A stretch of DNA of 64,000 bases from a virus. Position numbers and translations under genes: made by a program. The stretch lies in IMG/VR virus record IMGVR_UViG_3300034103_001027, positions 42,834 through 106,833 of that record; one strand, written 5' to 3'. Numbering within the stretch: the stretch's first letter is position 1; the number at the start of each line of letters is the position of its first letter. Below are positions 11,675-55,222 of the stretch, in pieces. The notes under the pieces were generated by a model. It was not told where the DNA came from. It saw only the letters and a list, made by a program, of their open reading frames with translations, and ran no database searches.

Positions 11675-11861
11675 AAGCCCATGCACTGGAAATTGTATCT
11701 TATGTGATACAATATGCATTGGCTGTGGCAGGACTCTCGATGAGATATTTCGATGGCGCGCTATGCGCGACTGCGAGAAGCTCGAGGTTTTGAGGCGGAC
11801 GGGAGCACTGGACTGTGAGTCCACTTCCAGCGATGAATCAGCCGAAGGTGATCCGCGCTAA
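11667..11861 (+). CDS. DUF1289-like putative Fe-S protein
   Basis: 'SPCTGNC...CIGCGRTLDEIFRW' signature. Confidence 0.8.
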   Translation: MVRSPCTGNCILCDTICIGCGRTLDEIFRWRAMRDCEKLEVLRRTGALDCESTSSDESAEGDPR

Positions 11862-24595: not shown

Positions 24596-25735
24596 TCAAA
24601 CAGGAACAGCACAACCGGAGTTGCGACTTACATTCCCTAGCCCTGACGCCTGATGCCCCAGGCGTTTAATATTTAAAGCAGCATTCAAATCTCGATCAAC
24701 TGAACAATGACAACCACCACAATTAAAAACTCGAACATCAAGAGGCATGTTTTGAACACGACCGCATTGATGACAGGTTTTGGTTGTCGGTTCCCATTGT
24801 CCGATTTGCTCGGTACTTTTACCACGCTTGTACGCTACCCACTTCAGAATCTGCAAGAAACTATCGAACGAAAGATCGGATATCTTCCTTCCCCAAAGTT
24901 TCTGCATGGCTGCGATATTAAGCGTCTCAAAGTACATTATGTCAAACCTATCACACAACGAATGTGCCAACTTAAAGAACCAATCGGTTCTCCGGTTGGC
25001 GATTCGCTCGTGTGCTCTGCTCAATCGATACTTTGCTTTTCGGCGATTCTTGCTGCCTTTCTTTTTACTTGCCAGTTCTCGGTTGCACTTGGCAATTTCA
25101 GCCATGCTAACCTTAAAGAACTGCGGACTTTCAATGGTAGTGCCGTCGCTGCAAGTGAGGAATTGCTTGAGTCCAAAATCAAAGCCAGCCGTATGAATGG
25201 AACCTGTGACTTGATTTTGAGTCTCTTCCTTCTCACAACTAAACACTACCCAAAAACGATTCATGCTATCTCGCTTGAGCGTGCAAGTTTTGATATTGCC
25301 TTCGATCTCACGAGATTTAATGAATTTGTACTGATACTTACCAAAACGGATTCGATTTTCGCCAAGGTATGCCCAACCTGCCTGCTTGAACGTGACGCTT
25401 CCATGCCCAGCGGAACGCTTGAACTTGGGCTTGCCTCGCTTCAGCCCAGCCCGCGTCTTGATCCACTTAAAAAACGCTTGGTACGTCAAGTCGAGTTTTT
25501 CAATGACCGCCTGGACACATTGCGATCCAACGACTTGCCAAGCTTCGCGACGATTGCGAAGCTTGGCAATGTGCTTCATCAGCTGGAATTTATTGCAGTG
25601 CTTCTTGAACAATCGATAGTGGGTTTTTTGAAAAGCAACACAGTGATTGCGAATGCGAGTGGCTGTAGTCACAAGGCGATGAAGCCTGTGATTCTTGCTG
25701 CTCTCGTACATTCGGAATTTGTAGCTGATTCTCAT
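24596..25735 (-). CDS. tnpB: TnpB RNA-guided endonuclease
   Basis: RuvC D (GFDFG), E (FETL), D (DRDLNAA) and zinc finger CHQC...CGGC. Confidence 0.95.
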   Translation of the reverse strand: MRISYKFRMYESSKNHRLHRLVTTATRIRNHCVAFQKTHYRLFKKHCNKFQLMKHIAKLRNRREAWQVVGSQCVQAVIEKLDLTYQAFFKWIKTRAGLKRGKPKFKRSAGHGSVTFKQAGWAYLGENRIRFGKYQYKFIKSREIEGNIKTCTLKRDSMNRFWVVFSCEKEETQNQVTGSIHTAGFDFGLKQFLTCSDGTTIESPQFFKVSMAEIAKCNRELASKKKGSKNRRKAKYRLSRAHERIANRRTDWFFKLAHSLCDRFDIMYFETLNIAAMQKLWGRKISDLSFDSFLQILKWVAYKRGKSTEQIGQWEPTTKTCHQCGRVQNMPLDVRVFNCGGCHCSVDRDLNAALNIKRLGHQASGLGNVSRNSGCAVPV

Positions 25736-26128
25736 TTAGACGTTTCTCTGGTTTTCAATATATTGCTTAATGACCGAAAGCGGAGCACCACCCACCGTTG
25801 CGACGAAATAGCTATTTGTCCAAAGCGTTGGCATTCGACTCTTGAGGTGCCTGAATTCTGATCGAAGCAACCGACTAGTGCGTCCCTTGATCTGCTTGAC
25901 GAGGCGATGGATTCCGTACTGTGGATCGCACTCAACAAGAAGATGCACATGGTCGGGCATTGTCTCAATTTCAATTATGTCACTAAGACGCTCGCCGCAA
26001 ACCTGACGAACAATCTCCTTGAGTCGCACATCAACCGCATCAACGATTACGTTTCGCCTGTACTTCGGGCACCAAACCACGTGGTACTTGCACGAGTAGC
26101 AGACGTTGTTGTTAGTTTTGTATTTCAT
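25736..26128 (-). CDS. tnpA: IS200-type Y1 HUH transposase
   Basis: 'YHVVWCPKYRR', HUH 'PDHVHL', 'LWTNSYF' and catalytic Tyr in 'QYIENQ'. Confidence 0.95.
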   Translation of the reverse strand: MKYKTNNNVCYSCKYHVVWCPKYRRNVIVDAVDVRLKEIVRQVCGERLSDIIEIETMPDHVHLLVECDPQYGIHRLVKQIKGRTSRLLRSEFRHLKSRMPTLWTNSYFVATVGGAPLSVIKQYIENQRNV

Positions 26129-37148: not shown

Positions 37149-37684
37149 TTGTCTTCTCCTTTTGAAAATTGTTTACTATCCCGCAGGTACTTCAGAAGGG
37201 CGACCGCCTTCTTGTACTCAGCCTGAATCGCCAGATCCTCTAGTGCCGCATGCCCGTCAAGGGCCTTGCACAGGTCGGACATGGAGATCAGTACGTCTCG
37301 AATGCTTGTCACCATATCGATGGTAACGCCACCAATAGTGACGCCACCCTCTACAGTGAGCATCCCATCTATGACGGTGATCGTGTGCTTCACTTCTCCT
37401 CCAGCGTGTACGTGACTGCTACGTCGTCCATGGTTTCGCTAATTACCGCACCCTCGGACCTCAGCACTGCGAGTACGCTCTCAAATGCCTTCTTGGTGCA
37501 GTCAGATATAGCATCAACTGGAACAATTCGAACTGGTCGGCCACTCATGAGATCCTCTACGTGTCTAGCGATGTCACCTGCAGGCCACCCGAACGTCATG
37601 AACATCGCCATCTCTTGCCTGACGATTTCACTTGACACCTCATTACTTAGCTTCATATTGATTCTCCTGTCTCTTAAGAGACGG

Positions 37685-38644
37685 CTAAACATTAAAGAAC
37701 TTTCGCAATCTCTCGTGACCGTATTGACCTTTCGTCTTCTCAATTATCTGCTTGACCGTGTACTCCTTTCTCTCATGCCCTGCGGACTCGACGAACATTT
37801 GGCAGCCCATCGAGCAGGCCCCGGTAACTGACCTGTACAACTGAACGCACTTCTCGAACGGCAGCTTGTCGGTTAGCTTCAGGCCCTTGAACTCACTGGT
37901 GTCCCTCGGTGATAACTTGTAGGCCAGGGACTCACGCGCTTTCTCGATGGTCTCTCCGTGAGAATAGTTCTCCCCGTCTGTTACGAGATACGAAACCTTG
38001 CCGTCGATCTGGCGTAGTTTGCGAATACCAAACTTCTCGCTTATGACTTCCGAGAAGACACCATCAACCTTGATGTACTTGCCGTTCTGCCAAGACAGGA
38101 GTCGAACATCGCTTCCTATATGGCGACTGTCGCCCTGCAGGTGTAGGTCTCCACCAACCGTAGGATTAAATCCTTCCGGCAGGCTGGTAACACTCCGCAG
38201 ATATAGGTTTCCACCAACCGTAGGATTGAATCCTTCCGGCAGGCTGATAACCCTCGACAGGTATAGGTCTCCACCAACCGTAGGATTAAATCCTTCCGGC
38301 AGGCTGGTAACGCTGTGCAGGTAAAGGCTTCTACAAACCGTAGGATTAAATCCTTCCGGCAGGCTGGTAACACTCCGCAGGTCGAGGTATCCACCAACCG
38401 TAGGATTGAATCCTTCCGGCAGGCTGGTAACACTCCGCAGGTCGAGGTCTCCACCAACCGTAGGATTGAATCCTTCCGGCAGGCTGGTAACACTCGACAG
38501 GTATAGGTCTCCACCAACCGTAGGATTAAATCCTTCCGGCAGGCTGGTAACACTCCGCAGGTCGAGGTCTCCACCAATGGGCTGCCTCCCGTCGAACTGC
38601 TCGTCAGTAATATTGAATTTCTTGCAAAACTCTTTTCGATTCAT
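37685..38644 (-). CDS. Leucine-rich-repeat-like protein with seven 20-aa repeats
   Basis: GGDLxLxSVTSLPEGFNPTV x7. Confidence 0.85.
   Translation of the reverse strand: MNRKEFCKKFNITDEQFDGRQPIGGDLDLRSVTSLPEGFNPTVGGDLYLSSVTSLPEGFNPTVGGDLDLRSVTSLPEGFNPTVGGYLDLRSVTSLPEGFNPTVCRSLYLHSVTSLPEGFNPTVGGDLYLSRVISLPEGFNPTVGGNLYLRSVTSLPEGFNPTVGGDLHLQGDSRHIGSDVRLLSWQNGKYIKVDGVFSEVISEKFGIRKLRQIDGKVSYLVTDGENYSHGETIEKARESLAYKLSPRDTSEFKGLKLTDKLPFEKCVQLYRSVTGACSMGCQMFVESAGHERKEYTVKQIIEKTKGQYGHERLRKFFNV
38140..38576. repeat. 60-bp tandem repeat (about 7 copies), coding
   Basis: Repeated 'ccaccaaccgtaggatt(a/g)aatccttccggcaggctggtaac' at 60-bp period. Confidence 0.95.
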
Positions 38645-41600
38645 ATTGATTCTCCTGCCTCTTAAGAGACGGCTAGTGTCCTAATTTCCTCGAACTCGCA
38701 CTCGCTGACCCCATTGATCCTTAACCACTGCACATGCTCGTACTTCTTGTAGAGTTCATCTCGAATCTCGTCGGCACTTGCGTGGCTACTTAGGATCACT
38801 TGGTCGGCGATACGGTAAAACAAGCCGGACGCATTAACCTTGCGCCCTGTGAATTCGCATTGATAAATCATGTGTTCTCCTTTTTATAATGCGACATGCC
38901 GTACATGGCAAGTCTGGGTCACCAGTCATACTGTGGAAGTTCTTCGTGCAGCGGACCATCCGCATCGAGGACCAACCATTTGCAATCATTGTCCTTGGCT
39001 ATACGAAGAAGCCTCGCAACATTCGTGACACCAAAATTCTCAAGAGCACTAATCGTCTCCTCGAAATCCGGTGGTGTGTATATTCGCCATCCATATTCAT
39101 ACGGGTAGCATATTATGTACTTATTAACCCTACTGCACTTATCTTGGAGCGCTGCGCTTTCAAGTACATTGATATGTGCAGTGCTGAAGACAATCTCTTT
39201 GTTGATTTCGTAGTTCATATTCGCTTCCCTTCTTCTGTAAATTCGTATTCGTTGCAAACGATATTCTCAGCAACATTCTCGTCACCCATCAAGTAGTCGT
39301 ACTCCCTCTCAAGGCTCTTGTACAACCAGTGCGCAAGGTCTCGGAAGAGATCAAGCAAGTCGTCTTCGACGGTTGGCTCAGTGATATCCTTGCCGTCCCG
39401 CCCTTCTATGTAGTCAACGCTCATTGTGTACGCATGAACACCCCTGCCACCCTGACTCACTCGGGCCGTCAGTTGATACATGTACGGCTTCTGTATCGAC
39501 TGCAGTCCTTCGCCTATACGCAGTAACTCCTTGTCATTGCAGTACGCGAGGAGCTTCTTCTTCCAGCCAGGCGAGTACTCATAATCCCCGGCCCAGGATG
39601 CTCCATCACCCTGCGAGCAGAAGCCGCTAAAGTAAATCACTGGCTTGTACACAGGTATCTTAGCGCCGTCTTTTCCGAGACGGTAAGTGCAGCTTGTTCT
39701 TTCGCTCAGGGTGATACCGAGTATCTTCGTGATCGCAATGAAGTCATCGAAGATGCAATCCCACCACTCGTCGTATGGGTAATCCCCCCCTCGATACCAG
39801 TCGCGAGCATTGGCTTTTGCTGAATCGCTAAGCTCCTCGTAGGTGTAGACCTTCGTCTCAATCGTTCGCATGGCTCTCCTCCGTTCTCTGTATTGGCTCG
39901 ACCTTAGTGACACGCAGTCCACCGCAGATTGTCTTGGCAGTCACCTGATGTGAAGGAGCCCTGCCTTTCGAAAATGGATTGGACTTCCACTGAACCTTGA
40001 TGCAATCTTCATCGTGCGATATCCGCACAGTCGTCCCAAGGCATGCGCCGGGGTACTCATTGCCACCGCTGACAATGCCGTTCTCTATGGCGCGAGCAAT
40101 CCTTAGTAACTGCTCGGCACTCAACTTAATACCGTTCATTACATCCTCCTAATCGAACCAAAAGTAAAGCCTAATTGCAGACACAATGAACTCATCTGCT
40201 TGATTGGCGAACCTACTGAAGTCAGCCAGAGTTTCTTTACTGTACTCCCCGACATACTCCAGTCCCTCGATAGTCACCCTGTAGTCGTCTCTTAGGTGAC
40301 TGATGGCGTAGCCATGGGCCGTAAACACTGGGTTGCTCTCCATAAATTTAAGCATCTCCGAGGCAGTTGGCGCACTGTTCTGGTGATCCTTTCCTTCAAT
40401 GAACTTCTCATCGAACAACTTCTTCAATGTCTCTAGGGTCATACCCCTGAAACTCTCGCAGTCGCCGACCTCATCTCGGCCAAAGATAATCTGATTCCGT
40501 CGCTTGTAATCTTTATTTAACATCAGTATTCTCCTTAAATATCTAATCCACCACGCTGAAATAAAACCACCTTCTTGGGATGCTCGATCTCGTGCGAGCT
40601 TTTCATTCTTCTGCCCCTGCACTTTCAATGAACTTCTCCCTTGTCAACACCTGAATCACTACAGACATATCCGAAGCCAGCCCCCTGGGTGATATCGGGC
40701 CAGTTGGCACCTCCTTCAGAGTGCAGTTCGGCCCGTATGGTAGGATGGTCAGTTGACCAGCCCAGCTTGACCCAAAATCATGTGCTTCCAGTAGAACCCA
40801 GCCATCAGGCCGGTACTCATTCAGTTGCACCCCAAGACGCCGTGACAACTCTGGCGGCTCAATGTCTTGCTTGCCGCAGTATGTTGCGATAAACGTCGAA
40901 CGGTCCACGTATTCCATCATTCTTCTCCTGTTTCTTGTGGTACATTCGCCTTACATGGCAAGTTGTTGATACAAAAATCATACGCATCAGAAAATCTGTC
41001 GTCGCTTCGCACCATGGAATCAATCTTATTGACCCACAGAACAGTGACCGGATGTTCCCTCAGCGCATCGCCATAGACACCATGGCCCTTTAGGTCCGAT
41101 AGCGCCCTGGAGAATCCATTAGCTACCGCCATAAGATTGCAGGCGTCTTGGACCGATAGGGCGTCATCGCATAGTTCAGGTATTGGTTTCATTGACATGA
41201 GTCCTTTCTAAAGTTGACTTCATTTCGAGGATACAGAACATGTATTCATCATGGGCAACTGGCCGCCAGTTCTCCACGAGATCCTTCAAGACCATTGGCC
41301 CTGTGCAGAATCTCCCTTCATGGAAGTAGATGATTTTCTTTGTTTTCTCGTGGACATACGAAGGACAGAATCCCCAGTATTTCCAGCACCCAGTAATTGT
41401 GTAGCCATACCTCGCCATGTCTGGGATCTTGCGGAACCCGTCAATAGCATCCGCCTTGTAGTACCTGCGACGGTCAGCCATCACATCCATCCTTTCTCTT
41501 TGAGGTGCTGCTTAATATCCCTATAGGTGCAGTTGCTTAGTCCTGGCCAGAAGACGCTAAACATAGTTCCGTACTCAAGCTCTGCCTTGCACGCACCTCC

Positions 41601-44600
41601 TCGCCACCACCCGCAGTAGCCGCAACTACTGAACTTAATTCCTGCATACCGTGCGTACTGCACCATAATGCAGCCGCACGTATCGCCTGCCAAATTCTCA
41701 CCGAATCTAACCTGTCGGTCGTCCGGCTGCTGCTGAATAAACTCGATCATGTCTTCCCTGGTTACTACTTTCATCACTGCTCTCCCTTCGTCTCTTTAGA
41801 GACGGCATTAGCTTTCTCTTGAACGTACGACATGGCGTCACACCGAATCGTCGGAACCCCACGAATGATTGCCATTGCTCCTCCACCGAACTCATCAGTT
41901 CGCATTTTGCTACATGTGTATGCCCACGAGCAGAAGAATGGGTCATCGATCTCAAGCTCCTCAATTAACTGTCGAGCAATCGCGTCGACTGTAATCGGAC
42001 AGAACGACTCGTCTCCGATGAACAGCACTCCATCACCCTTGATCTCAATCTCCACTCCATACTCAAGATAAGACTCGTATTCGTCCTCACTTTCTCCGTA
42101 TTCTAGACATACAGATTTAGCCGCCTCGATCTTCGCTCTCTCAATGATCTCCTGAACGCGAGGCATCTTGTCTTTTGGTATCTCCATGAATGAACTGCTT
42201 TGTGAATAGTTATTGGCCATTTCATCTCTCCGTTTGTAAGGGTTAATTCCGCCACGAACCATCTCTAAAAAGACGGTTATATGGCAAGTCACCAGCGTGC
42301 CCACTCAGGCAACGCTTCGTAAGTTTCCTGCGCCAACTCTTCATATCGCATCGCCCATGGAATGTCGCCGCCAGTCCTCTTGGTTCTCGCCTCAAGGGAC
42401 AGCGAAGCGTATTGGCGTAGTTGTTTAACTGCATCCATGGCTTCCTTTCCTTTGCCAGGGAACATGACCCTAGCTTCAGTCATGGGCCGATCCCACATAG
42501 ACCGATAGAACCCACGCAAGTCCTCCTCGTCCATCCCGTCCAAGTTCGGGCTGCCAACCCAATTCCTGGACTTCTTCCTCGGTGTCGCCTTAAGTTCCTT
42601 AAGGTTCTCCAGTGCCCACTTTCGCATCGCAACAGCTTCGCTTCCTGCGCTATTGTGTCCGCCCCCATTATTCCAGGCGTCGTATAGTTCATCAGGAAGT
42701 TCCAAGCCGAACCGGCAGTAAACGTCATCCGGCACTGTCTCTGGTAATCCATCTGATCCATACGACCCAGATAGCGTCGTTTGGTAGTCACCCAGCTTCG
42801 CGCTGCCCATCATGAAGTGCCCGAATTGCGACATCTTCACGAAGCGAACTACACCCTTGAGCTTTCTGTACTTTTCGCTCTCGCCTTGCATGAGAATCAA
42901 GAATTCTCCGTGAGCGAACTGCTCTCCGCTGCTAGTATATCCTCGCTTTGTTGTTGTTACGAACATTAGTTGCCCCTCCAGTCGAGGTCTTGTGTTATGC
43001 AGATAGAACGGCGTCGCGTTAAGGCGAAACCAGCGGTCAGGCAGTCGTTCACATCAGCGGAAGTGTACTCGTTCCAGGTGGTAATGTATTCTTCGCACAG
43101 TTCCAGGAACTTCTTTTCTGCGGACTCATAGTCGTCGAATAAGTAAGCCTCTTCTAGTAAATTGCGGTCGATGATAACTACTAGTGTCTTATTCATGATT
43201 AACCTTTCTGCCGTCTCGAAAAAGACGGCCCGTGATGATAGTCTATACTTCCCCTACGATCTCAAGATCAGGGAAGCTTGGGATCTCTAGGGACCGAATA
43301 AATTCCTCAATTGTCGTACTTGGATCGCGTGCTTCAAGTTGATCCAATGGGATCAAGATACGACCTGATTGAGTGGCGTTGAACATTGCAATACCATTTG
43401 GCGTGTAGTATTCAACGTGCCCATCAAGCTCGTACCTGGTGTCCCGTTGAATCAAGATGGAGGCTCCAATTTCAATACAATACGCAACAGTGTCGTTGAA
43501 ATCACTTTGAGTGCATTCGTAGAAGTACCCGAAACCATCATCACCTAAGTCGCCTTCAAGGCACGGCGACAGCAAGCACTCGATCTTCTCTAATTGCTCC
43601 TGCGTTACCTTGCCGCCAATGTAAACCGATCCACTAAACCTGTCAGCCATGTTACACCTCCTCCCTGTCGTATGTATCACAAACCCCAAAAGCTTCTGCC
43701 GCATCGTCTGGATTCTGCTTAAGGTACCTAACCCTCTGCTGTAATGCGTCAATTAGCACGCCAACCGGAACATCCCTCGGTTCTTCGCAGTCGTGATTGA
43801 CTGTAAACGCCACGTCAAACATGGTGTTGTATCTCATCGCTCTCTCCTTAGTACTTGGATTTCTCTTGCCAAACAAACTTAACGCCTTCCGGTAGGTCGG
43901 CTGTCTGAAACTCTGCCACAATTGGAGCCATTGCATCGAACTGCTCCTTCGTTATCCTCCTATCGGTGCTAGTCCAATTGACCGTCACCTCATTAGTGTG
44001 GTTGTAGTAAATGTAGTTGATGCCGCTTCCGAACTTGTCAAGCATGAACAACTCAATATCACGGTCGATACGAAGCTTCTTGGACTTGTTATCAAAGTCG
44101 CAGAGAATCTCAAGCCGCTTCTGCGCCTTAAAGCGAGCTTTCTTTTCGGCGTCTCTTGCGGCGATAGATTCAGGTGAGTAGTACCCAGTTCTCCTTCTCT
44201 CAGCCACCAATTCCCTCATCTCTTTCGAGACGGGCTTGTAGTGCTTTCTTGTGGCTTTAGACTCGAACTTCTTGCCGGTCCACGCCTCAAGCTGGGCAAT
44301 AGCGGCATCTGCCTCTTGCTTCCATCTCTCGACAATACCCGTGTCCTCGAGGAGTATTTGAATCTCCTCATCGGATCGGCACTCAATGAATGCAGGAAGC
44401 TCAGCATCGGTCAGCCTGAGCGACTCCTTGAAGATGCGCAGGCACTCCTCCTTGCTCTTTGCCCAGCTTCCACTGCCACCGTGATACTCGACCCAGGGGG
44501 CACCGAGATACCCGGCCAGCCAGTACCACGCATTGCCTCCATGCATTGGGACGCCTTCCCAATCACACAGGTGAAGGTCAACGAACGGCTTGAGTTCTGG

Positions 44601-44846
44601 CCTGACCGAGAGTATCTCCTCGTGGCAACAGCCGCCACCAGCATCGACCCATCGACCTCGACCGTCCTTCTCTTTGATGTTTGCTGTTACAGAGAAGTCC
44701 TCATGGCCATTCTTACAGTCATCGTCCAGGGTTATTCGAATGTCGAACAACCGGCCACCCTTCCTCGCCACGATACTGTGCCGCAGGGTGTTAGTCGTTT
44801 CAGTTGTTTCAGTCATTTCATCTCTCCTTCGTCTCTTTAGAGACGG

Positions 44847-45008
44847 TTAGTGCGTCGTGACATTGCATTCGTACTTGCCTATCAAGTGCGATAATGCTTG
44901 GTTGGCATTGGGCCAGCTACACCAGCCCATGCCGTTCTTGTAAACAGAGCCGGACATGAAGATGTGATACACATCTGGTCCGACTCGAACTGTATAGATC
45001 AAGGTCAT
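44847..45008 (-). CDS. 53-aa gene (MTLIYTVRVGPDVYHIF...) bracketed by identical palindromes; not in the ORF track
   Basis: Hand-translated; AAGGGG RBS follows the palindrome, and the TAA abuts the next palindrome. Confidence 0.6.
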   Translation of the reverse strand: MTLIYTVRVGPDVYHIFMSGSVYKNGMGWCSWPNANQALSHLIGKYECNVTTH

Positions 45009-45315
45009 GCCATTGCCCCTTTCGTCTCTTTAGAGACGGTTAGTACATTTGGTCAGCCAATTGACATCGCAGTTCCTGAGCCAGGTCCAGGCAGTTTGAG
45101 CTTCTGTACACGCCGACATTCGCCCAGTACTGATGCAAGTACGCACCGCCACTAAAAGAGTTATCGCCGGTCTGGTAATCCCAAGAGCCGTCCTTGTCAG
45201 CTCCAACGGTTAGCTGTATCCCTGGTTTGTCGTCACCCTCGAAGGCAAGATAGTCATCCTCGATGTACTTCTTGATATGGCGACACAGCTCGTAGAGTTC
45301 TTTGATTGTTGGTTT

Positions 45316-45477
45316 CATTTGCTTTTCCTTAGTGAGTAGACTGATTCTCCAGGTGGCCAGATGCATGGCACGAGATACAGCGTGACGCCGCACTTCGGGC
45401 ACGTAATAGTCTCTGGTTCGGGCCAGCCAGGGACATTGATCATTTCTTTGCAGGCACCGCATGATTGACTAGTCATG
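45316..45477 (-). CDS. 53-aa zinc-ribbon protein (CGAC...CPKC); not in the ORF track
   Basis: Hand-translated; ATGA overlap at its start, and its stop overlaps the start of the next gene. Confidence 0.55.
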
Positions 45478-46510
45478 CGACGCCTCTGTCTCTCTTGCGA
45501 CGGTACGCTTACGCCTTATCCGGGTCACTAGGAACGTACATTCCCAGCTCTCCTCGTCACCGCTAATAAGCGCCGCTTCCCACATACAAGGGCGACACCA
45601 TAGCCTCGTTCGTTCGTCAGCCTCCCTGATAGCGGCCTGGCACATATTCTCAAGCCAACCCTCGCTACGGTCGTACAGGTCAGACGGAAGCTTCACTTTG
45701 TATTTATCCTTAACAGTGCTCATGCTGTTCTCCATGAAGTTGTTGGCGCTTCTTCGATGGCGTAACGTGTGCCATCGTCAATCAGAACTAGAGCCTCTCC
45801 AGGGAAGAGATCAGGCTTGCCGATGCAGATTGAGCCATCGGCGATCTTGGAATTTACAAGGGACATAATGTCCCCGAGGGTCGCGTCGTCCTCGTAGTCG
45901 CTGTAGTACACACAGGCTTTCGAGAAGGACACGAAGTGATTAGTGCCGTTGGTCATCAATCATCTCCTCATTAAGGGTTATATGGCAAGTCCTATCCGGA
46001 ATAATAGCGACAGAGACTTGAGGTCTGTCGCCATTCATGTTGATACCTACGACCCATCGGTGTGACTGGCACCCCGAGAGGAGGAGGGTAAGTAGCAGTA
46101 ATCCTTTACGCATGATAATCCTTTCTATTTGATCCATGAAAACTCATAGGGCCATTGCGACGGACTGCATGAATCGTGAATGCGTTGGTACGACCGAATA
46201 AGATCCCTATGACTCTCTGGCAGGCCATATATGGTAACCAGTCGATCCCAGGTGTGATTCTCGAAATCCACGTTGTACTCATCGTCTCCGATGAGGCATC
46301 CCGCCGCACACTTGAGGGTCTTACCGTCTCCTTCGAGATGATAGCGACATATAGCACCGGCTACACATCGCTCGCCCTGAGCGAGAAGATGCGCCTCGAT
46401 CTGTGCCTTAACCTCTTCCCGTGTTGCAAGGTGCAATGTCTTTAGCGTGATCATGATTAACCTTTCTTGTTGATGATTGCCGTCTCTAAAAAGACGGCCT
46501 CTTGCTTATA

Positions 46511-46552
46511 CAAAAACTTGCCATACAACGCAAGAGTGTTATATGGCAAGTC
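46511..46552 (-). terminator. Hairpin built from two inverted copies of the TTGCCATA motif, followed by T5
   Basis: Minus strand ACTTGCCATATAAC-ACTCTTGC-GTTGTATGGCAAGT-TTTT. Confidence 0.6.
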
Positions 46553-48771
46553 GATTCCAAAAATTACAGCAGGAACTCAGTCGTAGTCCCGCATACGATC
46601 CACTTGCCAACCTTGTAGTCCAGCGTGCCGCATGGATGGCGATGCGGGACAAAGACCACAAGGTCTAGGTACTGCAAGGCCAGGAACATCGGGCTATCCT
46701 TGGGCATGTCGACTGGAATTGATTCATGCGCTGGCCGCCAAGCGCCCTTCCACACTAGGCTTCGGTATGTATCAATAATCTCTTGCCTGGACAATCTAGC
46801 CCCGGTCTTTTCAAGGACGACTCTAATCGCCTCTCTAACCCATTTAGCGCGAGACCGACCGGCAGCCGCTCGATCTACTGGCTCTATGACGCAATTTACG
46901 TGCAGGTTTCTTTTGCTGGACCCAGCCCAATACCCGCATCCATCCCTGGACGCAGTGAAAAGCTCTCCATGCAGCCAGAACTTGTCGCCTGGCGCGAGCA
47001 ATCCAAACCGATAAACTGGCTTTATTTTTTTCGTTCTCATGTTTCCCTTTCACTCGTCTTTTTAGAGACGGTTGATTGTTGTTGCGCATTTTCCCTAAAG
47101 CAAATCCTGGATCTCGTCAGCTAGGCGATACGTGTACTTCAGTTCCTCGTCAGATGCCCACTGCATGATATATGCAGCGGTAACCCCTTTCATACTAATG
47201 CCACCACCGTGGGCCATCAAAAACTCGTCCACAATAGCCCTCATGGCTTCATTGAGATGCACCCACTGTCCGCCCACTGGAAGGTTCAGTGCTTCCGTCT
47301 CCTTGGCGCTAAACAGATCGCAGGAGGCGATGTCGCCCCAGCCGTCTGCATTAGACCAAAACAACATTACGTTGTTTTCCATGCTTCGAATCACATAGAT
47401 CATGGTTTCCCCTTCGTCTCTAAAAAGACGGTTAAGTGTTATTACGGATTGTCTCTAGGTTAAGACATGGATTTCGAGCGATTGTGGACAGAGCTGCCGT
47501 CCGGGTAGATATTGAGCCCAACGTAAAACGCCGGGAGCACTCGCCGATCCTCTCCTGCGGCCTCTGCGGCCAATCCCCTGGCAATGTCATCCAGGATACT
47601 GTACTGGCAGCCATCTTTGCAGATATTGGCGACAGTGACATTCCTTGGGTCAAAGCCTTCAGCCCGCAGCAGACCAACGACACTTCGCACGGGGGTTCTA
47701 CTTAGCACCTCAGGCAGGCGGTACACGAAGCTCGTGCTGTTGACTGTAATCTCAACTCTCATTTACTTCCCCTTCGTCTCTAAAAAGATGACTCTTAGCC
47801 CAGACGGACCTTCCGCCCGGCTCTCTTGAACACGCCGCCAACGGGTCGCTGCCGACCCAATTCGGGGCAGGCCGTAATGACCCAGCGCCCGTTTGGTTGC
47901 AACACCACGCGCCCAGGCCCAGCCGGAACCGGCCTTTTCAGGCTAGCATGTTCCATTGCCACTAGGCCCAACGCCTTCCTGGGTGGCATCCCATAGTGGG
48001 CACACATTGCCCGTATGGATACCCAGTGCCCATAGTATGGACAATTCATAGTAACTTTCCTTATACCAGGAGTCCCAAAACGAAACAAGCCAACAGCCCC
48101 GATAAGGCAATTGGCTAGCGTCGTCTCGAAAAAGACGGACCAAGGTCGGCGCGCACCCCGATGATAGTCCCCTTATGATAGTCCGCATCTTGCCGATTCA
48201 CCCGTCCCCAAGGCAGCCGCTGACCATCGGGCCAACCGCTGCTGTGTAGGACAGGTGAATCGTTTGAAACAACCGTCTCAAAAAAGACGGGTCAATCCCC
48301 AATCGGAAGTCTGGTAGTGCCGAATTCGGCGAATCCAACAAACGTATAGTTCGCCAAGGCTTTCACGCTATCGCTCCACTTCCGGCCATCCACGCCCAGG
48401 TCGTTCAGAATGTCCAAGAACACTTCGGCAGTCGCGCCGTAGTGACGATGCGTCTCAGCGTATGCCTCCCAGTAGAGGTTGCCAATCGCATCAAAGCCGA
48501 CTAGCACTTCAACTGGGCGGATATAATCCGGGTGTTCACACAGATACTTAGCAGCCATTTCGATTCCCCTTTGTTTCTAACCGTCTCAAAAAAGACGGCT
48601 TGCACCAATTACGGATTTTCTCCGTGGTGCTTTTGGTCCAATTGAGACAATGGAAACAAGTGAAACTTGCTTCCCCTACGCAACAAACGTAGGCTAACGA
48701 ATCCCGTAGGATACATTAGCCTACGCCGCCCCCCTAGTTTGAGGGGCGGAGAAGGTTATATGGCAAGTCGA

Positions 48772-49542
48772 TTAGGCGACTTCAGCGGTAGCCGCTGCAA
48801 AAGCTTCTCGAGCCATCTGATCTACTTCAGGGGCAAGCATTCCATCCAGCCAAACTGCCTTGTCGGCAAGGGCTTGGCTTACCACTAGATCGAACACTCT
48901 ACCGCTAAACTCAGGGCCGCCAGCCTTCAGCCAGTCAGCGATTAGCAGCAGCTTGTCATTGGTATCCGCTGGCAGGACCGCTGGAATAGGCGACTCAACC
49001 GTCTCTTGAGAGACGGTTGGATTGCCAGTCGCACTCTCGGGCTGCGCTTCCTCAGCCTTCTTCTTAGACTCAATCGCCCCTACAGCCTTAAGCTGCGCAT
49101 TCATCTGCTGGTTGAGCAGATTGCCAACGCTCCGCAAGCGGTTCCCGATGCACTTGCAATCCAATTCCCACTTGCGATACGCTTCGGCGTCTGCTGGAGA
49201 CGGGCGTACTTGCATGCGCATTTCCCGGACAACTAAGTCCCAATGGGCGTAGCTGGTCCATGCAAAGCCGCACTTGGCGCTAAACACCCCTTGGCTGACG
49301 TCGCGCTTCTTCTTCTTGGCAAGAGACTTCAGCGCTTCAACAATGGTCTCATTGCAAGACCAGAACGCCTTGATACATTGCAGCTTGTCGGCGCTCGCCG
49401 TATCAACGGTCGAGTCCGCAAACACTTCCCGCATGAATGGCTCCATCATCACGACGCGCTCACTGTCAGTCAGTCCATTCTCAATCTCTTGTGCCAGCAT
49501 ATCCCTAACGGCACTCTCGAACTTGGTCAGATTCTTGCTCAT
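48772..49542 (-). CDS. Hypothetical 256-aa protein, first gene downstream of the large structured RNA
   Basis: AAGGAG RBS overlaps a palindrome; a second palindrome lies inside the gene. Confidence 0.7.
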   Translation of the reverse strand: MSKNLTKFESAVRDMLAQEIENGLTDSERVVMMEPFMREVFADSTVDTASADKLQCIKAFWSCNETIVEALKSLAKKKKRDVSQGVFSAKCGFAWTSYAHWDLVVREMRMQVRPSPADAEAYRKWELDCKCIGNRLRSVGNLLNQQMNAQLKAVGAIESKKKAEEAQPESATGNPTVSQETVESPIPAVLPADTNDKLLLIADWLKAGGPEFSGRVFDLVVSQALADKAVWLDGMLAPEVDQMAREAFAAATAEVA

Positions 49543-49639
49543 TGCATTCTCCTTCGTCTCTTAAGAGACGACTAAAAACGGTTCGGCAGTATAGCGAAGG
49601 TGCTTGTCTGCTCTCGATTCACTCGACTTTGCAAGAGAA

Positions 49640-50340
49640 TCGAAAGCAGCCCTTGCACCAATAAGATACAAGGGCTGCCATTTTTAGTTTCTAGTTATGG
49701 TGAGAGTCGATGCCCCGCAGCAATCCAGACCCTTTTGGGGTACTGGTTGTAAAGCGCCCATATTGCCGCTTTACACTTCCCGTAGATAGCCCCTGCGATA
49801 CTTTCCGCCTATTTAATCGCGCCAAATTGTAGGCTATTGCTCACGCTAAAATCGGTTTCTAGTCTCCGATAGTGAATACCCGCTTTCCTAGTGTTTTGCC
49901 AGAACACCAGGCGTAAGAGACCCCCTTGATAGGTGGTGCATTGAATATCCGGCCTTTTATTGGCGACTACACGCCGCCTGACTACACGCAATAAACGCTA
50001 GAATCCGCATCATATCGCTATGAATGCGTTAGATTGTCGCGCTATCTACGTCGTAACATTTTATTGTTACAGCCCCCCGCTTTTCATGGCCTTCCTCAAG
50101 TCAGGGTTTCGCAGGGCGGTCAATACTAGCCATCGGTCTTGACAAGGGTAGTATTCCTGGAGCACACGGTTGGGTTTCCCCCAACTCAGTGACTGGTCCT
50201 AGTTTATCGAAAACTCGACTAGGACCCCGCTGATAATCTGCTATCGCAGCTTTCTGTCGCGATTACCGATGCGACAACCTAACATCATATGGGACAATCG
50301 TTCCTTGCATGCTTGTGTTGCTGTGATGCTATTTCCAATT
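49640..50340 (-). ncRNA. Candidate large structured ncRNA (about 620-700 nt) with a pseudoknot
   Basis: No credible ORF; more than 12 hairpins; long-range crossing helices; GNRA loops and G-U wobbles on the minus strand; upstream promoter and downstream terminator-like hairpin. Confidence 0.7.
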
Positions 50341-50347
50341 GCCTAGC

Positions 50348-50377
50348 ATTGTGGCAACTAAACATCGTATGGAACAA
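50348..50377 (-). promoter_or_regulatory. Putative promoter for the large RNA (TTGTTC-N18-CACAAT, extended -10 TG)
   Basis: Immediately upstream of the first hairpin; a palindrome copy lies at 50399-50416. Confidence 0.4.
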
Positions 50378-50786
50378 GTGAAACAATGGTTTCGGTTGTC
50401 GTCTTAGAAAAGACGGCTTGTGGCTTGTATAAGAATTAAGGCGAAAAATGCTTTTCAACGTGCTAATGGGGCGAATTTTCACATTAACTTTCAGTTTTGA
50501 GCGTCGTAAGTGCTTATTTGACAAGGGGTTACGAAAATCAGCCAGGTGATAAAGGGGTGGGACGGACCATTTGTCTTGTAGATATATATTGGTACAGCCC
50601 CAAAAATTTTTCACGATTTTCAAACTCCAATTCCCCTCTTTTAGTGGAGCATGCGAATCAAACGAATCAGGATTGGGCTAGAATCGACGCTGATCGAGCC
50701 TTGACTCTTTACACCTAATCACCCTCAAGTCGCTTCCTGACGCGAGTTAGGGGCCTTCTTGAGCGTTTGATGCGACCTGAGGGTCT

Positions 50787-50962
50787 TGAAGGTGCGAAGT
50801 AGGTGGAAGCACCAATTGCCCCTTTCAACGCTTTACGGGGCAATCTGATGCGTTTTAGGGCATCTATAGCCCCACGAGCGTCTTGTGGGGTGTTAGGTAC
50901 GGTGAGGAAGACGGTGATTCGGTGGTGAAGGTGCGGAATGGGTGGAAGTACCAATTGCCCCT
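50787..50962. repeat. 37-bp imperfect direct repeat (50787-50823 / 50926-50962)
   Basis: tgaaggtgcg...ggtggaag(c/t)accaattgcccct occurs twice. Confidence 0.8.
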
Positions 50963-51175
50963 AGCGCATTTGATACTGATCCCTGGTGTCCTTCTTGCGT
51001 TCCCTAGGGTTCCTTCCTGCCTTTCTTCACGGGATGCCTCTTCCCTTCTGCTCCTATTGCTTCGCTTACCCCTTGAGAGGCTATTGCTTGGCTATTGCCT
51101 CTTTATGGGGCTTGTTGAAGCAACTTGGAGCTATTAGTTATATGTTGCACCTTATTTCAAATGTGTACCATTATT

Positions 51176-51203
51176 TTGAAAGTCAATGAGGGAATCATAT
51201 ACT
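51176..51203 (+). promoter_or_regulatory. Promoter TTGAAA-N16-TATACT
   Basis: AT-rich region directly upstream of the second structured element. Confidence 0.65.
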
Positions 51204-51209
51204 GTTGCG

Positions 51210-51491
51210 CGTTTATGTCTCTATGTAGTTTCTAAGCAGGCCGCCCAGGGAGGAGGCAACCAAGAAGGGGCCTGGTTCACGCTGCTTTATGTCTCAAATG
51301 ACCTATTTTAGATCTCAACTGACCACAAAAGAGACGGAAAGCAGCCATTCAAACCCTTAATGGCTCGCTGGACGCCCTTATGTACCCCTAGAACGGCTTG
51401 AGACCCGATTAGTGCATGGAATCTTGCCATTAAGGTATCTGAAATAGACCCTAAATACACCAACAACTGGGTTGCCGAGTAGATTTTATGG
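51210..51491 (+). ncRNA. Candidate structured ncRNA (about 270 nt) with two pseudoknots
   Basis: Three stems plus two loop-to-downstream pairings; G-U wobbles on the plus strand; has its own promoter. Confidence 0.6.
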
Positions 51492-51521
51492 CGTTTTTCG
51501 CCAGAAAGAGCATCGAGGGAC

Positions 51522-51549
51522 TTGCCATATACCGGAAGGTCGCTAAGAT
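51522..51549 (+). promoter_or_regulatory. Promoter TTGCCA-N16-TAAGAT
   Basis: Conserved motif upstream of a GGAGG RBS and ATG 51599. Confidence 0.65.
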
Positions 51550-51598
51550 TGGTGTGAATTGGGGTTTCAGGAGTCTATTTAGCTTGGAGGCAGCACAG

Positions 51599-53650
51599 AT
51601 GGGGCGTGTTTGGAAGCGAGCGGGTATTGATCTGGACGCTCTTATTGATGCTGAGCGCGCTGCTCAGCTTAGCGGTTATGACCTGGATGAGGATGCGTTC
51701 TATGCCAGGCTCTGCGAGGCCACTAAATGCGGTGCAGTCAGCGCCCCAGAAGGGGAGAGATACGACTGGTACACCGATGACGAGGAGTCCGAGGGGCCGG
51801 AAGCCGCCCCTGAGCCCGAAGATGCCGATAGTGAGTCATGGTGCTGGCATGGGCATCCCGACAGGGGGGAGCGGATTCGTCGAGTCCAGGCGTATACAAA
51901 GATACACGCCAAGCACCGGGACATCTGGGACATTGACGCTGAAGACCTAGAGATCCTAACTGCAGCCAAGGAGGAGGTCCTCATGCGCTGCAAGACATCC
52001 TATGGGGTCATGTACGTCGTGGAGGACTTTGGGGTCAGCGAAGTGAGTGTCCGGTGGGTCGTTAAGTGCCACAGGAAGAATCTGAGGGCTGGTGATCCAG
52101 ATGCTCTAGCGCTTGAGAAGGCGATTCAGGACAGAATGAAGGCGGCTGGCGGTCCCAAAGGCATGAGGAATGCAATGAAACGCAGACGTCGTTTTGATTT
52201 GAGTGTAACTAAGGGTATAAGGCAAGTTGCTTCAGCGTAGCAGGGAGGCTGAGATGGCTCAAGCGATAGTGATTTGTGCTTTTGTGTTGGCTTTTGTGGT
52301 TCAGGGGTTATTTGTACTAAGAGAGGGCAGTGATCATGAAGATTGAAGATATTAACGCAACGCTCCGCAAGGACGTAGATGTGCTTTTTATGGATGCCAT
52401 GGCGGCTCGCAGAGCCTTGGGTGAGGCTATGCGGCGTGTTGATGGCGTCCTGGAGGCGATTGAGAAGATCGAGAAGCTCGAGGACGCAATGCTTATTCAC
52501 AGCCGGAAGACCGGATCAGCATTGAACCTTACGCTGCCTAATGCGCCGGAAGGTGCCTATACCAGCACTTGTGGCGATGTGCAGCTTTGGTTCGACTGGG
52601 CCAATAAGGATGATGGAGTTTGGCCGTAAATACTACGGCTTAGTGCGATTTCTTAACAAGGAGTTTTATATGGTACATGGATTAGAAGTCATCAAGGCAA
52701 TGAATCACGAGGCTAGCGCGCCTGACAAGTTGCAGGCTGAGATCGTAGCTGCGGAGGCGCGCAGGTTATACGAGGACTTGCCTACCTTCCGGTGGGGCTC
52801 GGCAACTACATTTGTGAACGCTGGCGGGAGGCTTATTCGCATTACCATGTCAATTGTCGATGATGCAGATGGCATTATCCGCGACATGGGCGGGCGAAGA
52901 GTGACTGTCGGCAGTAAAGTGCGAGTCCACCAAGAAGACGGAATCCGCACTGCCGTTGTTCACAAGCTCCAATTGAACCAACCGACCAAAAACGCACCGG
53001 GCTACTGGGTTGATATCGATTCCGGCGAGGGGCTAGAGGGAATGCCATCATATCTCCTGGAGGTGATTGATGACTGACATAGTAAAAGCCCTCAGAGATC
53101 CAGAAGGATGTACCGCAGGCGACATAAGCGAAGCGGCAGATATGCTGGCATTCTTCTTTCTTATGATGCAAATACACTCCCCGAAGGGGAACAATCAATA
53201 CAGTTTCGTGTTCCATAACGGCTGGCCAACGACGCTTTGTGTTGGCAGCGGCCCGCAAGAAGCTGTTCGGGCTGCGATTCGAGATATCAGAACGAATATT
53301 GGTGAGTAACAATGAATCGTTATGTAATAAAAACTGAACGCACTGGCGAGTCAGGTGAATGTCATTATGTATGGGCGAAATCCAAAGACCGCGCTGTCGA
53401 ACTCTTTAAGGAATTACACCCAGACGCAGTGGCGAAAGGAGCATCCTTGACAGTGACCAGTGACAGACTAGATCCACCGGCTGGCCTTCACGACGAAGAC
53501 ACTCCAGATGGCGCGCTCAGCGAGCGTGAGAAGATGCTTGGGCTACTACGGCAAACCCTCGACATGATGGAGCGATGCAAGTTGTACGGCCCACTAAGGC
53601 GAGATATCAAGTCAGTCCTAGGTCTCCCGCAGAGTACATCCAAGCCATGA
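51599..53650 (+). CDS. Rightward operon of hypothetical genes (51599-52240, 52330-52629, about 52670-53077, 53067-53309, 53312-53650)
   Basis: Co-oriented ORFs with RBSs leading to xis. Confidence 0.6.
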
Positions 53651-53865
53651 CTCTTCTTGACACTAAACAAGTCCACCAGATCACAGGTTGGTCCCTAGAC
53701 AAGATCCGCTCACTCATACGATCCGGTAGACTCCCCGCTGTCAATACGAGTTCAGGGAGGCGTCCTACGTTCTCCATACGACGCGATGACCTTGATCGGC
53801 TCATAACACCAACCGAGCCTAAGTCGCACAGAAGAACGCGACAGAGGGCTCCTAAGGTGTTTTAA
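53647..53865 (+). CDS. xis: Excisionase-like HTH_17 protein
   Basis: 'LLDTKQVHQITGWSLDKIRSLIRSGRLPA...SIRRDDLDRL'; convergent with int. Confidence 0.8.
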   Translation: MTLLDTKQVHQITGWSLDKIRSLIRSGRLPAVNTSSGRRPTFSIRRDDLDRLITPTEPKSHRRTRQRAPKVF

Positions 53866-54970
53866 GGAGCCATGATCGAATGTGCAGACAGACCTTCTTG
53901 ATTCTCTCATCGCTAACCTGTCTGTACCTTGAGGACATATCCGATGCACTTGGGGTATGCCCCATACAGAACGAGACAGCGGGGAAGTCCATTGTCTCGT
54001 CTCCTACGGTCTGAAATGTCCTGCGTAGGTCATAGAACGAGCCTTTCTTGAGCTTAGCGGCGATACGAGCCTTTCGAAACATTTGCGTCCCTGCGTCTTG
54101 TGAGTCATGTTGCCACGGAGTGCCATGCGAAGTTAGCAATGCGGCACTTAAGTGGCTTGACTCTTTTCGACGCGAAATGGACGCCTTGATGGCCTTGATT
54201 GTTTCCGGCCAGAGATAGATTCTCCTTGGGGTGCCGGTTTTATTTCTAGGGCAGTTGAGCCACGGGAGATCCTCTAGCTGATCTAGTGTTATCCTTGAGA
54301 TGTCACCTACTCCCATTCCTCCGTTGATACCTAAGTACACTACTGGTAAGAAGTACACATTGCATTTGGATAGGATGGATCTGATGTGGCTTGCGGGGAG
54401 CGGCCCAGAGGAGGATTGATGCCTTTCGAGGCGAGTGATCCTTGAGCTGAACTCAGACAATGCGCAGCCTGGTTCCGCTGGCGGGAGGTACTTTGAGTTC
54501 CTAAGCCAGTTTAGAAACGCCTTGATTCGGCGGATGTCACCATTGACTGTAACATGCGATCTCTTCTGCACCGCGCCGCGACCACCAGTTCCCTTCTTTC
54601 GAGAGACCGGCTCCAAGAGCTTCACCTTGATTCTCTGATAAGCATCCTGATTCCAACTCGCTGGGTCGCTGGTCCTCCCCATAACACCACATAGCCGCAC
54701 AAGAGTCTTCTTGACCTCTTGAAGCGACCTGTCGCTAAACTCACCTATTGCGACCTGTTGCTTCTTATGGTCATAGTACAGATCGGCAAGTTCATGCAGA
54801 GGAAGGTCCGGTGAGTCATCTATCTTCCCGAGGCCAGCGCGAAGATTCTCTTTGGACTTCGAATAGGACAAGAGAGCCTTCTCGAGGTCTGTACCGAAGT
54901 AGTAAAACTTGCCATTGATCTTTTTGCACCACTGGCCGCTGGTGTGCCTGCAAAGCGGTAAGTCTCCCAT
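53852..54970 (-). CDS. int: Tyrosine integrase (planctomycete-type)
   Basis: 'GQWCKKINGKFYYFG' arm-binding domain; RNKTG, YDLRRT, MGH and catalytic RY; adjacent to attP. Confidence 0.9.
   Translation of the reverse strand: MGDLPLCRHTSGQWCKKINGKFYYFGTDLEKALLSYSKSKENLRAGLGKIDDSPDLPLHELADLYYDHKKQQVAIGEFSDRSLQEVKKTLVRLCGVMGRTSDPASWNQDAYQRIKVKLLEPVSRKKGTGGRGAVQKRSHVTVNGDIRRIKAFLNWLRNSKYLPPAEPGCALSEFSSRITRLERHQSSSGPLPASHIRSILSKCNVYFLPVVYLGINGGMGVGDISRITLDQLEDLPWLNCPRNKTGTPRRIYLWPETIKAIKASISRRKESSHLSAALLTSHGTPWQHDSQDAGTQMFRKARIAAKLKKGSFYDLRRTFQTVGDETMDFPAVSFCMGHTPSASDMSSRYRQVSDERIKKVCLHIRSWLLKTP

Positions 54971-55016: not shown

Positions 55017-55222
<206 letters not shown>

What the first reader, a model, noticed from the sequence alone, without database searches (positions are those of the whole stretch)
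49640..50340. Large (about 620-700 nt) pseudoknotted ncRNA candidate heading the early region
Seen: an ORF-poor stretch packed with helices. Plus-strand coordinates include GCAGCCCTTG/CAAGGGCTGC (49646-49678), TGTAAAGCG/CGCTTTACA (49748-49775), GGTCCTAGT/ACTAGGACC (50195-50226), AATACTA/TAGTATT, GTTGGG/CCCAAC, TGTCGC/GCGACA and GTAACA/TGTTAC. Two long-range helices cross, forming a pseudoknot: CGTAGATAGC (49781-90) with GCTATCTACG (50041-50), and CCCTGCGA (about 49791-98) with TCGCAGGG (50109-16). On the minus strand most mismatches become G-U pairs and several loops read GAAA, GCGA, GCAA or GUAA (GNRA), which fixes the orientation. A promoter-like element precedes it and a terminator-like hairpin follows. 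Known large phage RNAs of this size include GOLLD and ROOL; I cannot assign it to any family, so it may be new.
Basis: partly seen in the sequence, partly recalled or inferred. Interest (0 to 1): 0.9.

Follow-up and report, generated by a model that had tools for sequence, protein, structure and literature searches.

The report
Hairpin-rich non-coding phage early leader
An 830-base gene-free stretch at the head of the early genes of an uncultured lake phage of planctomycetes holds a few unusually strong hairpins and probably gives a non-coding RNA or leader. The claimed large pseudoknotted fold could not be confirmed, because no relative's DNA could be obtained.

Summary
The stretch is truly non-coding: there is no codon-usage signal, no RBS-led ORF and no Pfam hit anywhere in 49543-51487. 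It matches no Rfam family, GOLLD and ROOL included.

Only the local hairpins exceed chance. Three perfect 9-10 bp hairpins lie in 700 nt, and no control window of this phage has more than one. The long-range helices and the 'pseudoknot' occur about as often as in shuffles and in control windows. Folding z-scores are strong only for the 3' 150 nt (-4.8). The other 560 nt score -1.9 to -2.2 on the minus strand and better on the plus strand, so the fold does not fix the orientation.

New result: 48790-50369, the stretch plus the 256-aa first early gene, is an allelic cassette. An abundant sister phage carries 1628 other bases there, with a 32%-identical homologue of the gene and a gap of similar size (about 839 nt).

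No homologous DNA could be fetched, so covariation is untested. No RNA run was listed.

Best reading (0.4): an untranslated, terminator-ended leader or first transcript of the leftward early operon, matched to its gene. A stand-alone ornate RNA remains possible (0.2).

The parts
48790..50369 (-). Allelic cassette: the first early gene plus the non-coding stretch. In sister phages of the same lakes it is replaced as one block by 1628 other bases.
   Evidence: a contig of run X4 joins 48789 to 50370 with 1628 letters between. The same loose ends appear in X3 and X18. Flanks are 99-100% identical.
48772..49542 (-). 256-aa first early gene (P0001), an all-helical protein of unknown function. It has two distant homologues, P0002 and P0003.
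   Evidence: Coding signal. HMMER hits with E 8e-11 and 3e-8, aligned. No Pfam or PHROG family.
49555..49570 (.). Copy of the early-region palindrome (CGTCTC-N4-GAGACG). On the minus strand it lies directly before the RBS and ATG of the 256-aa gene. It is the left border of the gene-free unit.
49588..49617 (-). Weak promoter-like site (9 of 12 matches) between the terminal hairpin and the gene.
   Evidence: This is a consensus match only.
49645..49679 (-). Terminator-like hairpin. On the minus strand it has 15 bp (3 G-U) and a 5-nt loop, followed by a U-rich tail. On the plus strand it has 10 bp and is also followed by a U run.
49725..49775 (-). Two adjacent hairpins: a 9-bp perfect stem at 49748-49775 and a 4+4 bp stem at 49725-49746. 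With the terminal hairpin they form the only strongly structured block (z -4.76).
49781..50050 (-). Central part closed by the 10-bp long-range helix 49781-90/50041-50. Inner hairpins include 49887-49911 (9 bp with one G-U, minus strand only). z is -2.16.
49791..49798 (-). 8-nt segment abutting the 10-bp arm. It is complementary both to 50109-16 (the claimed pseudoknot) and, shifted by two bases, to 50242-49.
   Evidence: The number of such helices is within chance.
50052..50277 (-). 5' part with local hairpins at 50052-71, 50122-55, 50169-86, 50195-226 (9 bp perfect) and 50254-77. z is -1.91 on minus and -3.19 on plus.
50281..50377 (.). Two copies of a 17-mer (50281-97 and 50361-77), each inside a direct repeat of about 30 nt. 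The right cassette junction (50370) lies inside copy 2.
   Evidence: 2 exact copies, plus 1 at three mismatches elsewhere in the window, against 0.54 expected. Also.
50400..50415 (.). Last copy of the early-region palindrome. It is the right border of the gene-free unit.

Best explanation
The stretch is the untranslated first unit of the leftward (minus-strand) early operon. It would be a leader or separate transcript of about 700-830 nt, starting in or near the AT-rich control region right of 50340. It runs through a series of hairpins and ends, or is attenuated, at the 15-bp hairpin with its U-rich tail at 49679-49645, just before the palindrome, RBS and start of the 256-aa first early gene.

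Its working part is probably the set of discrete hairpins, above all the 3' 150 nt, rather than one compact 650-nt fold. I infer that it acts as a gate on read-through into the early genes, as a terminator/antiterminator or as a recognition site for a protein. I also infer that it is matched to the gene behind it, because the two are exchanged together as one allelic cassette.

Shown: the stretch is non-coding, has an excess of hairpins, has a terminator-like end, and is part of an exchanged cassette. Inferred: that it is transcribed, its strand, and the gating role.
For: - **Non-coding.** No frame reaches a coding score anywhere in 49580-51470, while both flanking genes do. There is no RBS-led ORF and no Pfam hit for the small ORFs.
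- **Hairpin excess.** Three perfect hairpins of 9 bp or more, against 0.02 in shuffles and at most 1 in 46 control windows.
- **Structured 3' block.** z is -4.76 for 49630-49780, with 0 of 200 shuffles as stable. The terminal hairpin lengthens from 10 to 15 bp through G-U pairs on the minus strand only.
- **Position.** The stretch lies between the last two copies of the palindrome that punctuates the early genes. It shares the negative GC skew of the minus-strand early block, and the skew changes sign at about 50300.
- **Cassette.** 48790-50369 is replaced as a block in sister phages. The replacement encodes P0003, 32% identical to the 256-aa protein, whose C-terminus matches the junction read. 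By arithmetic this leaves about 839 nt before that gene, against 827 nt here.
Against: - No transcript evidence.
- No clear promoter was found upstream.
- The plus strand folds as well or better in two of three parts.
- A promoter-like site lies between the hairpin and the gene, so the gene may not depend on read-through.
- Only one exchange event was seen, so the linkage of leader and gene may be accidental.
- The content of the sister allele's 839 nt is unknown. It could hold a gene.
Confidence: 0.4

Rival explanations
1. A stand-alone, large (about 650 nt), compactly folded non-coding RNA with long-range helices and a pseudoknot. It would be a new class comparable to GOLLD or ROOL.
For: The stretch is 830 nt without coding signal in an otherwise tightly packed phage. 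The whole-stretch z is -3.4. There is a 10-bp long-range helix that persists in the centroid fold. An adjoining 8-bp arm could stack on it. It ends in a terminator-like hairpin. It matches no Rfam family.
Against: The central and 5' parts reach only z -2.2 and -1.9. Windows of 200 nt across 49700-50100 give z from 0 to -1.3. One of 11 coding control windows folds better relative to its shuffles. Long-range helices are within chance, and the pseudoknot arm has an alternative partner. There is no homologue in 401 Pirellulaceae genomes, in the phage collection or elsewhere in the phage's own genome. There are no covariation data.
Confidence: 0.2
2. Mostly functionless spacer brought in by the recombination that exchanged the cassette. 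Only a promoter and the terminator hairpin would work, and the other helices would be chance or relics.
For: The cassette is mosaic. Folding of two-thirds of the stretch is unexceptional. No homologue was found anywhere.
Against: Phage genomes rarely keep 800 nt of idle DNA. This contig has few other gaps of that size. Three perfect 9-10 bp hairpins are far above both shuffles and the phage background. The sister allele appears to keep a gap of nearly the same size (by arithmetic). The stretch was identical in the 581 nt covered by low-depth contigs of another lake sample.
Confidence: 0.2
3. A DNA-level element, such as a replication origin or a regulator-binding region. It would use the inverted and direct repeats as protein sites beside the AT-rich segment at 50350-50650.
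For: A repeated 17-mer at 50281-97 and 50361-77. An AT-rich block with 40% G+C next to it. A local GC-skew switch at about 50300. The plus and minus strands fold equally well, as expected for DNA palindromes.
Against: The strong hairpins have 10-14 nt loops, unlike typical operators. The skew simply follows gene orientation, and the locus is not the global skew minimum. The replication genes lie 27-33 kb away. The G-U extensions favour RNA for at least two hairpins.
Confidence: 0.1

Closest known systems
GOLLD (Rfam RF01998) and ROOL (RF03087), large ornate RNAs of phages and prophages
   Same: Several hundred nucleotides of gene-free, hairpin-rich sequence in a phage. GOLLD was also first seen in lake metagenomes (own knowledge; named in the preprint 10.1101/2024.12.08.627333, listed).
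   Different: No match to either covariance model even at E up to 10. No tRNA neighbourhood. No family of homologues. Overall folding is not exceptional. A multimeric, compact fold is untested.
Leader of the lambda pL operon with nutL and gene N (processive antitermination). This is an analogy of mechanism, drawn from established knowledge.
   Same: An untranslated leader with RNA hairpins lies directly before the first early gene. That gene and the leader travel together between related phages. Many hairpins sit between the downstream early genes.
   Different: The leader is about four times longer. No boxA was found. The 256-aa protein has no similarity to N or any known family. Binding of the protein to the RNA is pure inference.
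RNA-based immunity leaders of P4 (CI RNA with seqA/seqC) and P1/P7 (c4 RNA). This is an analogy only, from own knowledge.
   Same: A non-coding head of an early operon in a temperate phage. One 18-nt segment (49781-98) is complementary to two separate sites in the same leader. A terminator lies before the first gene. The region differs between otherwise near-identical phages, as immunity regions do.
   Different: No sequence or Rfam similarity. The complementarities are within chance. No processing or immunity data exist.

Membership tests
GOLLD RNA (RF01998) | Match to the Rfam covariance model at or above its gathering score | tested here: not met
   No hit at gathering score in the whole window. 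No hit at E up to 10 in 49300-51700.
ROOL RNA (RF03087) | Match to the Rfam covariance model at or above its gathering score | tested here: not met
   no hit.
Other catalogued large RNAs (OLE, HEARO, group I and II introns, RNase P, tmRNA, 6S) | Match to the Rfam model, or ARAGORN for tmRNA | tested here: not met
   The only matches were three chance-level hits (E 6-7) to unrelated small families.
Structured non-coding RNA (generic) | No protein-coding capacity | tested here: met
Structured non-coding RNA (generic) | Folding energy clearly below shuffles and below the genome background | tested here: inconclusive
   Met for 49630-49780 (z -4.76). Not met for the remaining 560 nt (z -1.9 to -2.2). 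The controls reach -3.25.
Structured non-coding RNA (generic) | Compensatory base changes among homologues | not testable with these tools
Contigs of the same allele were identical.
Structured non-coding RNA (generic) | A discrete transcript of defined strand and ends | not testable with these tools
   No RNA run was listed among the 24 holders.
Intrinsic (Rho-independent) terminator | G+C-rich stem directly followed by a U tract | tested here: inconclusive
   A 15-bp stem with a 10-bp G+C-rich core. The tail is U-rich but interrupted, and the consensus scan did not list it. Terminator rules for planctomycetes are not established.
Nus-dependent antitermination leader (boxA type) | boxA-like sequence in the leader | tested here: not met
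   No match with up to 2 mismatches inside 49543-50420. The E. coli consensus was used; the host's own boxA was not derived.

The most novel reading that the evidence does not exclude
The stretch and the 256-aa protein form a co-evolving RNA-protein pair, a new kind of specificity cassette at the head of the early operon of planctomycete phages. It would exist in at least two highly divergent alleles in one lake population. The RNA would be a new large structured class recognised by its own protein, for example to license read-through of the roughly 20 inter-gene hairpins or to set immunity.
Probability: 0.12. Interest if true: 0.75.

Novelty: new member of a known kind. Interest (0 to 1): 0.35.

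Why it matters
Almost nothing is known about how phages of planctomycetes control their genes. If the stretch is a functional RNA, it would be a first handle on early regulation in these phages. The natural pair of highly divergent alleles in the same lakes would give a ready-made covariation and specificity test. As it stands it is an orphan candidate. Its value lies in the concrete, cheap next step of fetching the sister allele and comparing.

Tried and rejected
**Searches for homologous DNA, all empty**
- blastn against the phage collection.
- Related loci in viral contigs by the 256-aa protein, the 250-aa protein, the integrase, a helicase, P0003 and alignment A1.
- Exact patterns from the sister allele's junction and from the shared flank, in viral and metagenome contigs.
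- A 22-mer of the 18-nt double-arm segment in genome contigs.
- blastn of the whole gap against 401 Pirellulaceae genomes gave only chance-level short hits.
- The protein family was sought in 401 Pirellulaceae, 49 Aureliella-genus and 401 Planctomycetota genomes. This was done to reach prophage copies. Not found in those searched.
- tblastn of P0003 against phages.

**Other dead ends**
- No RNA holder was listed among the sequencing runs.
- Parts of the stretch had no contig cover in some runs.
- No paralogue in the phage's own genome apart from the palindrome.
- Alternative genetic codes do not open a long frame.
- AlphaFold2 model of the 256-aa protein: mean pLDDT 43.6, unusable, so no fold search was run.
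- The Atlas look-alikes are unnamed viral clusters scoring below 0.9.
- The Aureliella MAG that carries the att site has only an 8-kb tRNA-integrase island and a 227-nt prophage arm. It has none of the early region.
- The first sliding-window script timed out.
- Complex prediction was not used, because binding of protein to RNA cannot be sent to it.

Full report
**Context.** The window is the right 64 kb of a 106.8-kb IMG/VR virus record. It carries a terminase, a head protein, helicases, recombinases and a tyrosine integrase. The 3' half of a tRNA-Arg next to the integrase matches Aureliella and other Pirellulaceae MAGs exactly, one of them from a Lake Mendota sample by its name. The phage DNA is held by many lake-water metagenomes. 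The host is therefore very probably a freshwater planctomycete. The finding lies in a 1.9-kb gap (49543-51487). On its left is a 256-aa gene on the minus strand, the first of a long block of minus-strand early genes. On its right is a 250-aa gene on the plus strand.

The stretch is truly non-coding:
- A codon-usage log-odds profile trained on 23 genes of this phage stays at or below about 0.08 in all six frames from 49580 to 51470. It reaches 0.15-0.36 in both flanking genes.
- No ORF of 20 codons or more has a Shine-Dalgarno site.
- No stop-codon reassignment opens a long frame.
- None of the ten longest small ORFs has a credible Pfam match; the best is a collagen-repeat hit at E 0.12.

What exceeds chance is the set of local hairpins. 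Three perfect stems of 9-10 bp with loops of 10-14 nt lie in 700 nt. Dinucleotide shuffles give 0.02, and none of 46 control windows of the same phage has more than one.

The long-range part does not exceed chance. Four long-range helices of 8 bp or more were seen. All helices of that length average about 2 in shuffles and about 3 in control windows. The 8-nt arm of the 'pseudoknot' pairs equally well with 50242-49.

**Folding energy.** The whole 701 nt gives z -3.4 on the minus strand and -3.75 on the plus strand, with 20 shuffles each. Without the terminal hairpin it is -2.83. Eleven equally long minus-strand control windows range from +2.2 to -3.25.

Domain z-scores, 200 shuffles each:

| Part | Minus strand | Plus strand |
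|---|---|---|
| 3' block, 49630-49780 | -4.76 | -3.21 |
| Central, 49779-50052 | -2.16 | -2.86 |
| 5' part, 50051-50345 | -1.91 | -3.19 |

Windows of 200 nt across 49700-50100 give z from 0 to -1.3 on the minus strand. Strong structure is therefore confined to the 3' 150 nt, and thermodynamics does not fix the strand.

Three things favour the minus strand:
- The terminal hairpin grows from 10 to 15 bp through G-U pairs on that strand only, and 49887-49911 behaves likewise.
- The stretch shares the negative GC skew of the minus-strand early block. The sign changes at about 50300.
- It sits between the last two copies (49555-70 and 50400-15) of the palindrome that punctuates the early genes.

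I put the minus strand at about 60-65%.

**Known families.** There is no Rfam match at gathering scores in the window. Only three chance-level hits appear at E up to 10 in 49300-51700. There is no tRNA or tmRNA and no boxA-like sequence in the stretch. It is therefore not GOLLD, ROOL, OLE, HEARO, an intron, RNase P or tmRNA as catalogued.

**New finding: an allelic cassette.** Laying Logan contigs of four lake metagenomes on 48000-52500 showed that an abundant sister phage is 99-100% identical on both sides. It carries 1628 other bases in place of 48790-50369. One contig bridges the replacement, and the same loose ends appear in three runs.

An exhaustive HMMER search with the 256-aa protein found only two small homologues, and one further weak hit to a repeat-rich 858-aa protein (P0004) that I take to be spurious. 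One of the homologues, P0003 (268 aa, 32% identical), ends with exactly the residues encoded by the loose end at the left junction. The sister phage therefore holds a very divergent allele of the same first early gene.

By arithmetic, that allele has about 839 nt between its start codon and the right junction, against 827 nt here. The right junction falls inside a 17-mer that occurs twice (50281-97, 50361-77). The sister allele keeps a diverged copy of it, as read from the loose end. The gene-free stretch and the gene thus travel together, and a gap of the same size seems to be kept. Low-depth contigs of the window's own allele from another sample were identical over the 581 nt they cover. There is therefore no variation to test for covariation.

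**Why covariation could not be tested.** All routes to the sister allele's DNA or to more distant relatives came back empty or were closed. No RNA run was listed.

**Interpretation.** The solid facts are:
- an 830-nt non-coding unit;
- a handful of exceptional hairpins concentrated at its 3' end;
- a terminator-like end just before the first early gene;
- co-inheritance with that gene as an allelic block.

The most economical reading (0.4) is an untranslated leader or first transcript of the leftward early operon. Its hairpins would gate or modulate entry into the early genes, and it would be matched to the gene behind it. This is comparable in logic, not in sequence, to the lambda nutL-N leader or to the RNA-immunity leaders of P4 and P1.

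It is not excluded (0.2), but it has no support beyond the hairpins. A largely idle spacer (0.2) and a DNA-level site such as an origin or operator region (0.1) remain open.

**Verdict.** This is an orphan candidate with a clear, cheap decisive test: compare it with the sister allele.

Noticed in passing
window 50640-51200: The right half of the same gap is conserved in the sister phages and strongly structured (z -8 on minus and -5 on plus for 50701-50900). In the 2-5% diverged strain of run X18, 7 of 8 substitutions at paired positions keep pairing in the plus-strand fold, all through G-U intermediates. Only 3 of 9 do so in the minus-strand fold. This hints at a plus-strand structured leader before the 250-aa gene.
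   Followed up: partly
window 50782-50823 and 50921-50962: A 42-nt direct repeat (86% identical, 139 nt apart). Each copy contains a GGTGC...GCACC hairpin.
   Followed up: no
window 37668-50415: About 20 copies of the palindrome CGTCTC-N4-GAGACG lie between early genes. Two copies (49000-15, 49188-202) lie inside the 256-aa gene.
   Followed up: partly
window 51004, 51372-51419 and 50399: Further strain-specific replacements or junctions in the gap, seen as loose ends in runs X3, X13 and X18. The non-coding gap is a hot spot of mosaicism.
   Followed up: no
window 55143-55192; L004 219-261; L016 1120-1194: The attP tRNA-Arg 3' half is identical to Aureliella/Pirellulaceae MAGs. One Aureliella contig (G001:C43) starts with 227 nt resembling the phage's attP arm followed by the tRNA half. 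40 kb further on it has a full tRNA-Arg(TCT), followed by an integrase 49% identical to the phage's, in an island of about 8 kb.
   Followed up: partly
window 24596-25735 (-) and 24707-25861 (+): A 379-aa PHROG 'transposase' (phrog_506, E 2e-84) is overlapped almost fully by a 384-aa ORF on the opposite strand. It could be an IS element inside the phage. A guide-RNA region next to it was not looked for.
   Followed up: no
window 11761-13188 (-): A large serine recombinase/invertase (phrog_95 and phrog_125) in addition to the tyrosine integrase at 53852-54970.
   Followed up: no
window 51176-51223: Overlapping divergent promoter-like sites: plus strand TTGAAA-16-TATACT (10 of 12) and minus strand GAGACA-16-TATGAT (9 of 12), sharing their -10 regions. 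If the minus-strand site is used, the leftward leader would be 1.6 kb long.
   Followed up: no
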